NCBI RefSeq assembly: GCF_006345805.1 | Contig: NC_043010.1 | Coordinates: 24,118,001 to 24,182,000, forward strand | DNA length: 64,000 bases | Reading direction: 5' to 3' | Origin: Octopus sinensis | Taxonomy: Eukaryota | Part shown: piece by piece, positions 14,578 through 16,500 of the stretch | Layout: each line of letters opens with the position of its first letter | Position numbering within the stretch: position 1 is the stretch's first letter | Notes under the pieces: model-generated | What the model saw: only the letters and a program-made list of their open reading frames with translations | Told to the model about the DNA's origin: nothing | Databases searched by the model: none | Made by a program: the position numbers and the translations under genes

Positions 14578-14829
14578 GTAGCCTGCCTCGCTCGCTGAGA
14601 TGACTGCAACCTCTCTAAATGGCGGTGGTGTAATTCCCTTACGGTACTGTCACATTGAGTTGACAGTACAAATCCACTATATCGCTCCACCACCGCTCAT
14701 GTCTCTGAGACATTTAGAAATTCAATATTTCTAATTTCGGTGATAAGGAAATAAATTTTACTGATAATATGATATATTTGCAGAGAGGTTGCAGTCATCT
14801 CAGCGAGCGAGGCAGGCTACCCTGAACTG

Positions 14830-16444
14830 TGTTTGCGTCGGTTTTTCGGATTTGCGGTTTAGTGGGTTGGATTTTTTTGATTATTGTTATTGAGAATTGT
14901 TGCGTCGTGTTGAATTGTTGAATTCTTTGTTGGGTATGCAAGCCCAAACTTATGCGGGAGCAGCAGGCAAAAGCCTGGCTGCGAACGTATTACAGTTGGA
15001 AGAAATAATTGTCGAAAAGGAAGATTTGAGGAAGTACTACGACAGCTTCAAGAAGGAAGGAGAATGTCTGAGGGTTACACCACCTGAAGACGAAGTGAAA
15101 GAAGCGGAGAAAAAATCATAACATACAGAACATGGAATGTGATCTCAAAGAGAAAGAAGTAGCAGAGATGGAAGAGATTGAGAAATGTCTACAGGAAATT
15201 AAAGGAAGAACTACCTTCTACAATAGAGGTAGAAATTACGCTACGGTAGACGTTCGTTTCGAAAATGAAGACGAAGCGAAAAGGAACGCAACGACAGTGT
15301 TGAGATCGGAAAAATGGGTTTTACTCCCTAGTTATTGTGGAAAAAGAGCAGTGAGGGTACGAATAAGCAAAATCCCACCGGAACTTGATACCGAAAGAAT
15401 AGTAGCCGCAATAATCCATAACTGCAAGGAGAACGTGGACATACTTAAGCTGGAAAAGTCGAATGAAATAAACTGGTGGGGTTATGCGGTGCAAGCCGTA
15501 GTCCACATAACCATGCCAGATTTGTATAACATCCCGGAGGAGTTGGTGTTCCCCGACGAGACACGTCTGAGAGTCATGGTGGAGGGGAGACCTCCAGTGT
15601 GTTATAAGTGTAAGAAAAGAGGGCACACGAAAGATGTGTGTCCTGAAGGAGAAATACAAGAGAGGAAGATGACACTGGAGGAAGCAATAAGAGCTTTGAC
15701 AGAGGATTTAGGAGATAATACGGAAAGTGACGACGAGTTAGTGAAGGAGAAAGAAGAGGAAAGAACAGAAGAAAAAGAGGATAGAAAGCGAACACGGGTG
15801 GAATCACCACCCAAAGACCAAAAAAGAAAAAAACTAAAAGGAAGTATGCTGACGGGACAGATGATCGAACGCCCGAAGGGAGAGATACAGCAACTGAACT
15901 GAGTGAAGGTTCAAGGTGGGAGGAAACGGTAAAATGGTCAACAAAAGTGGAAGAATGTCTGAAAACATGCAAGGAAGGAGGAAGACCTAAAGGAAAGAAT
16001 CTCAGAGCTGTAATATTGTACACAAAAGATAAAGAAATTGAGAAAAAATTAGCAGTAACGAAGTGAAATTGAACCCGAGGATGTACGATGACAAAACAAA
16101 GGCTGCAATAGTGGAAAAAGAGACGGTAAATAAATTAATAAATTTGTTTTCAGATACAGTTGTAACCATAAAGTATTACGTTCGGTATGACAGTTTGCCA
16201 GGAGTTATAGAACAAGATGAATTACTCGTTTACATTACGGACGAACACCCCAGATAGTATAACTGTAATATAAATGAAACTACTAGATTTGGGGGGCTCG
16301 TAAGGCATTTCATTAATTCAGTGTTAATAATTCATTTCATTTAATATCATCCTTTTTATTTTTTATTATATGTACCCCATGTCCTGTATTGCATTGGTAT
16401 GTCCCCTCTTCAGTCAGGCCATTGAGCCTATAATAAAGAGAAAA
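14830..16444 (+). mobile_element. ORF1-only L1/Tx1-derived retroelement (HAL1-like) with 19-bp TSD
   Basis: ggcaggctacc(c/t)tgaactg is duplicated at 14811-14829 and 16445-16463. AATAAA at 16432 is followed by a short A-rich tail. The only coding content is an ORF1-like frame, with no endonuclease or RT. Confidence 0.78.
14936..16257 (+). pseudogene. L1/Tx1-type ORF1 nucleic-acid-binding protein, frameshifted (~440 aa reconstructed)
   Basis: N-terminal TYAGAA motif, RRM-like VRVRISKIPPEL segment, CX2CX4HX4C knuckle (CYKCKKRGHTKDVC), then an acidic/basic tail. Split across ORFs 14897-15121, 15132-15902 and 16063-16257. Confidence 0.72.
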
Positions 16445-16454
16445 GGCAGGCTAC

Positions 16455-16500
16455 CTTGAACTGACGATGAGCAATACACTCAGAAACTTATGTCTTCAGG
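16455..16500 (+). ncRNA. Minimal type-I hammerhead ribozyme
   Basis: CUUGAA-CUGACGA-UGAG(caauaca)CUCA-GAAAC-UUAU-GUC/UUCAGG. Predicted cleavage after 16494. Confidence 0.82.

What the first reader, a model, noticed from the sequence alone, without database searches (positions are those of the whole stretch)
14811..16500. ORF1-only retroelement inserted inside a hammerhead catalytic core, leaving an intact ribozyme behind its poly(A) signal
Seen: the 1.6-kb insert (14830-16444) encodes only an L1/Tx1-type ORF1 (YAxA motif, CCHC knuckle) and ends in AATAAA plus an A-rich tail. Its 19-bp flanking duplication (one mismatch) covers stem I and the CUG of the HHR core. The uninterrupted empty site is visible on the minus strand nearby (14532-14616), which makes the TSD call direct. 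The upstream HHR copy is cut off after CUG, while a complete HHR starts 11 nt after the element (predicted cut after 16494). The nick site (gcga|ggcagg) is not the T-rich L1 consensus. Known: HAL1 elements are ORF1-only L1 derivatives, and Tx1-clade LINEs often target specific multicopy sequences. Inference: this may be a retroelement family that targets retrozyme/pLTR hammerheads and could gain ribozyme-defined transcript ends from them. One copy cannot separate targeting from chance.
Basis: partly seen in the sequence, partly recalled or inferred. Interest (0 to 1): 0.9.

Follow-up and report, generated by a model that had tools for sequence, protein, structure and literature searches.

The report
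Half-LINE targeting ribozyme-repeat start sites
This 1.6-kb insert is a decayed copy of a jumping-gene family that encodes only one (ORF1-type) protein and, in about three quarters of its copies, sits at the front of short hammerhead-ribozyme repeats (once in a U2 snRNA gene), likely landing at their predicted transcription start to borrow their promoter rather than aiming at the ribozyme itself.

Summary
In detail: insert 14830-16444, 19-bp flanking repeat with one mismatch, empty site on the minus strand, hammerhead (HHR) behind it. Targeting is real. Of 83 family 3' ends held, 62 sit on target, same strand: 61 in HHR repeats of several families, 1 at +1 of a U2 gene; chance is about 2e-5 per end. 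None of 99 ends has ORF2 upstream. ORF1 is under purifying selection (dN/dS 0.05-0.25), and one copy is A-to-G hyperedited, which points to an RNA intermediate. ORF1+ORF2 L1/Tx1-type relatives hit the same sites. But the 3' junctions lie 19-38 nt upstream of the catalytic core, at the predicted transcription start of U1/U2-like promoters, and copies carry previous hosts' first bases at their 5' ends, so they likely use the host promoter. No copy ends at the ribozyme cut, so ribozyme-made ends are unsupported. Whether promoter proteins or sequence pairing pick the site is open. Verdict: new variant of known kinds (HAL1-like, Tx1-like targeting). Unchecked scan notes report Tx1 elements targeting Penelope hammerheads in other genomes.

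The parts
14310..14616 (-). Inverted partial copy of the host repeat (host A, 354-bp unit) with an uninterrupted hammerhead: the empty site
   Evidence: (inverted repeat I1, 225 nt, 95%)
14545..14571 (-). HHR core and stem II of the empty site
14615..14801 (+). End of the preceding host unit, carrying the predicted promoter
   Evidence: (D17)
14743..14748 (+). Position of the U1/U2-like promoter hexamer (ATCAGT in other host A copies; two changes here)
   Evidence: function inferred
14771..14781 (+). TATA-like stretch about 30 nt before the predicted start
   Evidence: function inferred
14802..14802 (+). Predicted transcription start (+1) of the host, 58-59 nt after the hexamer as in U1/U2 genes
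   Evidence: inference spacing; not mapped on RNA
14811..14829 (+). 5' copy of the 19-bp duplication (host +10 to +28); junction shared by 5 loci
14830..16444 (+). ORF1-only non-LTR retroelement, decayed copy
14936..16257 (+). ORF1 remnant, 4 frameshifts, 62-75% identical in pieces to the intact 461-aa copy in L026
15597..15647 (+). CCHC zinc knuckle
   Evidence: E 0.015; 14 of 18 family members match
16432..16444 (+). AATAAA plus short GAGAAAA tail, shared with an autonomous family that uses the same site
16445..16463 (+). 3' copy of the duplication; 3' junction at host +10
16455..16500 (+). Complete type I hammerhead motif (core 16461-16467, GAAA 16483-16486, predicted cut after 16494)
16501..16668 (+). 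Rest of the host unit, ending in a TA microsatellite

Best explanation
The insert is a dead copy of an ORF1-only LINE family that inserts at a fixed place at the front of hammerhead repeats, and that likely is transcribed from the host's promoter and likely borrows reverse transcriptase and endonuclease from ORF1+ORF2 relatives using the same sites. Steps: (1, shown) insertion in the host's orientation at two nearby sites, about -3 to +3 and about +7 to +11 of the predicted start, with a 13-17 bp duplication. (2, inferred) The hosts are retrozyme-like repeats with U1/U2-type promoters, so the element lands just behind a promoter. (3, inferred from retained heads) The RNA starts at the host's +1, so the first host bases travel with the element and can pair with the next target, as postulated for R2. 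(4, inferred) Reverse transcription starts a few bases after AATAAA; the downstream hammerhead is left intact as a by-product and is not copied. (5, inferred) ORF1p is kept because it acts in cis; ORF2p comes in trans. (6, least certain) The site is chosen mainly by position relative to the promoter, helped by RNA-target pairing.
For: Targeting: 62 of 83 ends on target, 21 elsewhere; 24 of 99 ends have the exact core within 55 nt against 1.9e-5 expected per end, 0 in the opposite orientation. Independence: copies in at least 9 HHR/U2 host types with many switches on the tree. No ORF2: 0 of 99; none in 20 regions of 6-9.5 kb round divergent ORF1 hits. Selection: dN/dS 0.05-0.25 in 19 of 21 subfamily pairs, 2 saturated. 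RNA intermediate: one copy has 114 A>G changes at 253 A positions, control 4. Partners: APE+RT+zf-RVT ORF2; L103/L116 and L112 share hosts and sites with ORF1-only subfamilies; L258, L269, L270 share the window subfamily's tail and site. Promoter: ATCAGT or ATCATC at -56 to -61 in 25 of 25 U1 and ATCAGT in 24 of 28 unoccupied U2 loci; best hit of that matrix lies 52-70 nt before the TSD in 15 of 19 HHR-host insertions, random control 17.5%. Known +1: 2 of 30 U2 loci carry a clade member at +1, one with TSD -3 to +11. TATA-like box at -28 to -34 in 8 of 10 further target types against 8.4% control, 0 of 7 truncated off-target copies. Donor heads: L275 in U2 carries an HHR host's start, L015 and L019 a host C start, L169 the first 19 nt of U1 (18 of 19). 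Newt satellite 2 has an snRNA-type promoter (passage in PMC2220036).
Against: Occupied hosts are not richer in intact promoter hexamers than empty ones (27 of 46 vs 16 of 29, p 0.81, with several false anchors), and some copies sit in hosts that lack it (L009, L030, L057, L141). The U2 start resembles one HHR host's start (9 of 12 bases), so the U2 insertions do not by themselves prove position-reading. 0 of 25 U1 and none of the 5 U6 loci printed were occupied. The candidate partner shares only the last ~14 nt and loose U-rich similarity with the window family and 35% ORF1 identity; its three copies are broken. No transcription start was mapped. The window's own promoter hexamer is mutated. 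21 of 83 ends are off target.
Confidence: 0.58

Rival explanations
1. Same family and same promoter borrowing, but the site is chosen by sequence only: a loose endonuclease preference plus pairing of host-derived RNA ends with the target. The link to transcription starts arises because only copies behind a promoter reproduce.
For: Subfamilies are partly host-faithful. Off-target junctions share 3-5 bases with the usual host start. Full-length copies are 48 of 62 on target but 4 of 21 off target (p 3e-6). No enrichment of intact promoters among occupied hosts. Target starts share a pyrimidine-A and often GG near +9 to +12. PMC4494074 (passage) says target choice in non-LTR elements is mainly set by the endonuclease.
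Against: The bases shared at the nick across hosts are few, too few to explain the specificity without help. Unrelated targets of other clade members have a TATA-like box at -28 to -34 (8 of 10). One 21-copy subclade spans hosts A, B, C and D.
Confidence: 0.3
2. One reading: the element aims at the hammerhead core and uses the downstream ribozyme to make its RNA 3' end.
For: 61 of 99 ends have a core 19-38 nt downstream; two more autonomous families sit 70-90 nt upstream of unrelated HHRs; read-through RNA would contain a complete HHR.
Against: Distance to the core varies (19-38 nt; 70-90 nt in others) while distance to the promoter motif clusters. U2 and host X targets have no detected HHR. 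None of 61 HHR-flanked ends stops at the cut site; off-target copies carry only 2-5 tail bases. AATAAA lies upstream of the ribozyme. A trimmed RNA with internal priming is not excluded.
Confidence: 0.07
3. Hitch-hiking: one or a few old insertions were multiplied as cargo of the host repeat by Penelope-type machinery.
For: Five host A loci share one 5' junction; three of them form a clade (support 0.953).
Against: Many different hosts and junctions; TSDs at unrelated off-target sites and at a 5'-truncated on-target copy, L152; head-to-tail arrays of the element alone. At most this explains the small host A lineage.
Confidence: 0.05

Closest known systems
HAL1 (half-L1)
   Same: Non-autonomous, encodes only ORF1 (PMC5753468 passage); ORF1 conserved across old subfamilies.
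   Different: Derived from an octopod L1/Tx1-type lineage with a CCHC knuckle, not mammalian L1; no poly(A) tail; strongly target-specific (I recall no targeting for HAL1; the HAL1 paper was not held).
Target-specific Tx1-clade LINEs (Tx1 in Tx1D, Keno in U2, Tx1-Mar and SINEU-3 in Mariner-N4)
   Same: APE-type ORF2 relatives, multicopy or transposon targets, tandem insertions, non-autonomous passengers, proposed transcription from flanking target (PMC4494074 passages and section 20).
   Different: Target is the start of HHR repeats and U2 +1 across many dissimilar host sequences; the passenger is a protein-coding ORF1-only element. That Keno inserts inside U2 rather than at +1 is recalled, not checked.
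Position-specific elements at Pol III genes: Ty3, TRE5-A, NLTR-A
   Same: Fixed distance from a promoter; TRE5-A ORF1p binds TFIIIB subunits; Ty3 inserts 1-4 bp upstream of the TSS (PMC5911963 passages).
   Different: Here the promoters look snRNA-type or TATA-type and insertion is in the host's orientation; no protein interaction is shown.
R2 co-transcription
   Same: [quoted passage not shown]
   Different: R2 has its own 5' HDV-like ribozyme and an RLE nuclease; here the head likely comes from the host's start site and the ribozyme belongs to the host and lies downstream.
Non-LTR retrozymes / Penelope pLTR hammerheads (host repeat)
   Same: Type I HHR, non-coding unit of about 350 bp, partial tandems, inverted 5' pieces, TA flanks (PMC7229834, PMC8557442 passages; bioRxiv 10.64898/2026.07.22.740005).
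   Different: Mostly dispersed monomers; U1/U2-like promoter motif, noted before only for newt satellite 2 in what I could read; parent Penelope element not identified.

Membership tests
HAL1 | Only ORF1, no ORF2 | tested here: met
   0 of 99 ends with ORF2 within 1.5 kb; arrays of 1.7-kb units
HAL1 | ORF1 kept under selection as a transposing lineage | tested here: met
   dN/dS 0.05-0.25; hyperedited copy
HAL1 | Descent from mammalian L1 with poly(A) tail and T-rich nick (recalled) | tested here: not met
   No poly(A) run, other nick sites; relatives are octopod proteins. Works like HAL1, is not a HAL1.
Tx1 clade | Autonomous relatives with ORF1 (CCHC) and ORF2 (APE + RT + zinc finger) | tested here: met
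   closest solved relative is L1 ORF2p, E 1e-66, against R2 4e-23
Tx1 clade | RT phylogeny inside Tx1 rather than L1 | not testable with these tools
   No named Tx1 reference came from any call; 'Tx1-type' is a resemblance
Tx1 clade | Target preference above 20% of flanks (criterion in PMC4494074) | tested here: met
   62 of 83
Position-specific (Ty3/TRE5-like) targeting | Fixed distance to promoter across dissimilar sequences | tested here: met
   15 of 19 and 8 of 10; U2 TSD -3 to +11
Position-specific (Ty3/TRE5-like) targeting | Dependence on an intact promoter | tested here: inconclusive
   27 of 46 vs 16 of 29, p 0.81, noisy anchors; host A 5 of 5 vs 9 of 24 by eye
Position-specific (Ty3/TRE5-like) targeting | Element protein binds a transcription factor | not tested
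   No host factor sequence was fetched; no complex job run
Non-LTR retrozyme (host) | Type I hammerhead with conserved core and covarying stems | tested here: met
   110 distinct motifs; stem I, not used for selection, paired in 569 of 660 cells, shuffled mean 408, max 443; kinship not controlled. Rfam gave no HHR hit.
Non-LTR retrozyme (host) | Short non-coding unit in tandem repeats | tested here: inconclusive
   354-bp period, but mostly 1-1.5 units with inversions
Non-LTR retrozyme (host) | Self-cleavage and circular RNA | not testable with these tools
   Monomer cleaving fold is 4-6.5 kcal/mol above the MFE; palindromic loop III in 79 of 110 suggests a dimer form

The most novel reading that the evidence does not exclude
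A whole octopod LINE clade reads transcription start sites rather than sequence: it is guided by snRNA-type or TATA promoter complexes to +1 of hammerhead retrozymes and U1/U2 genes, takes over those promoters, and has spun off at least two long-lived ORF1-only families that keep ORF1p as the cis-acting targeting factor while sharing ORF2p. That would be an animal counterpart of Ty3/TRE5 targeting, at snRNA-type promoters, and a three-level parasite (Penelope, retrozyme, half-LINE).
Probability: 0.3. Interest if true: 0.85.

Novelty: new variant of a known kind. Interest (0 to 1): 0.64.

Why it matters
It adds a target class for site-specific LINEs (the start region of ribozyme repeats and U2 genes) and joins two habits known separately: ORF1-only passengers and strict targeting. 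It shows that octopod hammerhead repeats carry U1/U2-like promoter motifs, which bears on how animal retrozymes are transcribed. Because the same clade hops between dissimilar hosts and has two nick positions, it offers a natural test of whether endonuclease sequence preference, RNA-target pairing or promoter-bound proteins set APE-LINE specificity, a question relevant to programmable retrotransposon insertion. The single window copy is dead; the value lies in the family.

Tried and rejected
Rfam scans found no hammerhead in the window or hosts; only microsatellite-driven miRNA hits. Word-based protein search with ORF1 found nothing; the profile search did (589 hits). AlphaFold model was poor (pLDDT 49) and Foldseek gave no match at E<=0.001, only weak RRM-type rows; not used as evidence. 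ESM Atlas: CCHC and ZCCHC3-RBD clusters at 0.91-0.93, a lead only. RNA: no RNA holder listed; four guessed-RNA contig sets were laid but contigs cannot show starts, ends or strand, so nothing is drawn from them. Promoter-dependence test was null. The window's GIY-YIG fragment found no Penelope ORF beside 30 HHR loci (one short query, weak test). Host X and the L166 host stay unidentified: no Rfam hit, no HHR by my parser, no clear ORF. Segmental duplication of the window locus rejected: L004 and L006 match only within the host unit. Monomer MFE folds do not give the hammerhead shape. One relaxed-regex core call (first end in L141) was false and was moved to the tandem class. The window's own copy has a variant 3' end and is not among the 99. 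Of 104 pattern matches, 4 were not listed and one listed place was not fetched. No complex prediction was run. Papers not held: PMC2923044 (HAL1), PMC308520 (newt promoter). Repbase/Dfam and subscription papers could not be searched, and no supplements were read; a Repbase entry for these families may exist.

Full report
Observation. ORF1 begins at 14936 and has 4 frameshifts, so this copy is dead. The tail is AATAAA plus GAGAAAA, without poly(A). Rfam does not report the hammerheads; I parsed them by motif. Across held loci 110 distinct motifs pair in stem I, which was not used to select them, in 569 of 660 cells against a shuffled mean of 408 (kinship not controlled), and loop III is palindromic in 79 of 110.

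The family. The own genome is a 2.7-Gb animal genome; the nearest named ORF1 relatives are Octopus and Argonauta proteins, so it is likely an octopod. A DNA search scored 40 of 367 candidates and returned 30 loci; by eye 28 of 30 are followed by HHR-repeat sequence (21 with a full core) and 2 are not. To avoid flank bias I took all exact matches to the family's last 23 bases: 104 in the genome, 0 for the reversed control, of which 99 distinct ends were held. 83 belong to the window's family and 16 to a second, divergent ORF1-only family with the same end. Of the 83, 50 have an HHR core 19-38 nt downstream, 11 are followed by a host start or remnant (tandem or deleted), 1 by a U2 gene and 21 by other DNA; 13 of the 16 others are on target too. 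The genome holds 1,834 cores of one strict pattern; 24 of 99 ends have that core within 55 nt, against 1.9e-5 expected per end, and none in the opposite orientation; 1 of 30 unselected HHR loci is occupied.

ORF1 only, and moving through RNA. None of the 99 ends has ORF2 within 1.5 kb. Divergent subfamilies (54-60% protein identity) are also 1.7-kb ORF1-only units, often in head-to-tail arrays. dN/dS over the first 240 alignment columns is 0.05-0.25 in 19 of 21 pairs, 2 being saturated. One copy (L070:5516-6862) differs from its neighbour by 114 A>G changes at 253 A positions in that stretch, control 4; this fits ADAR hyperediting of the template RNA (inference). A tree of 99 near-full-length copies out of 153 ends shows repeated host switches; the 21-copy subclade holding the window copy (support 0.957) spans hosts A, B, C and D.

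Partners. zf-RVT search and 20 fetched regions show ORF1+ORF2 elements whose ORF1 matches the family profile (E down to 1e-61) and whose ORF2 has APE, RT and zf-RVT domains, closest to L1 ORF2p among solved structures. They are target-specific too: L103/L116 and L112 use the same hosts and sites as ORF1-only subfamilies; L117/L119 and L102 sit 70-90 nt upstream of two unrelated HHRs. Of 14 matches to a tail-plus-site pattern, 3 (L258, L269, L270) have ORF2 upstream and the window subfamily's tail and nick position. They share only the last ~14 nt with it, have 35% ORF1 identity and are broken, so the pairing is a candidate. Placement in Tx1 rather than L1 could not be tested for want of named references.

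What the site is. All 25 U1 loci and 24 of 28 unoccupied U2 loci have ATCAGT (3 U1 loci ATCATC) 56-61 nt before +1. A matrix from these has its best hit 52-70 nt before the TSD in 15 of 19 full-length HHR-host insertions, control 17.5%, and 78-88 nt before the core in 16 of 30 unselected HHR loci. So the HHR repeats likely have snRNA-type promoters, as reported for newt satellite 2 (passage in PMC2220036). On that spacing most subfamilies nick at about -3 to +3 and the window's subfamily at about +7 to +11. Where +1 is known, 2 of 30 U2 loci carry a clade member right at it, one with TSD -3 to +11; 0 of 25 U1 loci do. A TATA-like box lies at -28 to -34 in 8 of 10 further target types, control 8.4%, and in 0 of 7 truncated off-target copies. 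Against position-reading: occupied hosts are no richer in intact hexamers than empty ones (27 of 46 vs 16 of 29, p 0.81, with false anchors in the first set), some occupied hosts lack the motif, and the U2 start resembles one host's start.

The ends. True TSDs are 15-16 bp at four clear off-target sites and 16 bp at a 5'-truncated on-target copy. Full-length copies often carry, behind their TSD, the first bases of a different host: an HHR host's start in the U2 insertion L275, host C starts in L015 and L019, and U1 +1 to +19 in L169 (for L169 a template switch to U1 RNA is an alternative). This is what RNA starting at the donor's host promoter would leave, and resembles the uniform R2 junctions attributed to target bases on the RNA (PMC3774820 abstract). 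For the window: five loci share its exact 5' junction, three tested form a clade (0.953), and 3 of 5 carry a G where none of 26 host A core loci does, so the 19-bp repeat ending in the core's CUG is likely partly inherited. At the 3' side, off-target copies carry 2-5 tail bases and none of 61 HHR-flanked ends stops at the cut site (54 keep at least 5 of 6 stem I pairs, 7 continue with mismatches or a deletion). The ribozyme is therefore not the start of reverse transcription; trimming of a read-through RNA is not excluded. Full-length copies are 48 of 62 on target and 4 of 21 off target.

Mechanism and odds. Best reading (0.58): promoter-borrowing, start-site-targeted half-LINE, ORF2p in trans, site chosen mainly by position with help from pairing. 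Sequence-and-pairing-only targeting 0.30; core targeting with ribozyme-made ends 0.07; hitch-hiking 0.05. Targeting itself and the ORF1-only nature are close to certain.

Comparison and novelty. HAL1 is ORF1-only (PMC5753468 passage); Tx1-clade elements target transposons, U2 and microsatellites, and carry the passenger SINEU-3 (PMC4494074 passages and section 20); Ty3 and TRE5-A are placed by TFIIIB (PMC5911963 passages). Animal retrozymes and Penelope structure: passages of PMC7229834 and PMC8557442, part 1 of 5 plus term passages of bioRxiv 10.64898/2026.07.22.740005. Passages of PMC10294476 and PMC8967140 mention L1-Tx1 in molluscs without targets. Ten searches listed no paper on LINEs targeting HHR-repeat starts or on ORF1-only Tx1-type families in cephalopods; Repbase, subscription journals and supplements were out of reach. 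Two unchecked notes of this scan describe Tx1 elements at a fixed base in Penelope hammerhead ends in other genomes; none on this genome or protein. I did not test them; they suggest that ribozyme-repeat targeting recurs, which makes the ORF1-only form and the start-site link the distinctive part here. Class: new variant of a known kind; interest 0.64.

Noticed in passing
L070:5516-6862 (-): ORF1-only copy with 114 A>G changes at 253 A positions over the first ~720 coding bases; looks like an ADAR-hyperedited RNA fixed in the genome.
   Followed up: yes
L169 (- strand, element 5' end): Internally deleted copy in a TG microsatellite whose 5' end is the first 19 nt of U1 snRNA (18 of 19 match).
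   Followed up: partly
L259-L268, L271, L276-L279: Second ORF1-only family, about 30% identical in ORF1, with the same 3' end and the same +9 site.
   Followed up: partly
L106:458-1870, L109:239-1729: Further ORF1-only units in tandem with autonomous elements, likely a third family.
   Followed up: no
L064:1200-1380 and 6480-6700; L112; L166: Unidentified CCAAT/TATA-preceded repeat (host X) with small hairpin repeats, targeted at its predicted start by an autonomous and an ORF1-only family; no Rfam or HHR hit.
   Followed up: partly
HHR hosts W, Y, Z (L072, L048, L073): Core variants UUGAUAA/UUGAAAA (U3-A8 swap), CCGAUGA and UUGACGA, and a frequent C-A mismatch at the base of stem II.
   Followed up: partly
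window 16861-17127: GIY-YIG (Penelope-type) remnant with a 105-bp inverted repeat right after the host unit.
   Followed up: no
window 35960-36230 and 37400-37630: Long inverted pair carrying a CTGA(T/A)GA..GAAAC motif at 36068 (-) and 37576 (+); not parsed as a full hammerhead.
   Followed up: no
L107, L108 (G000 C9, about 76.60-76.63 Mb): Tandem array of autonomous and 5'-truncated (3.57-kb) clade members at one site.
   Followed up: no
L033 and L105 5' flanks: An ORF1-only and an autonomous copy share a similar non-HHR upstream flank, suggesting another multicopy target.
   Followed up: no
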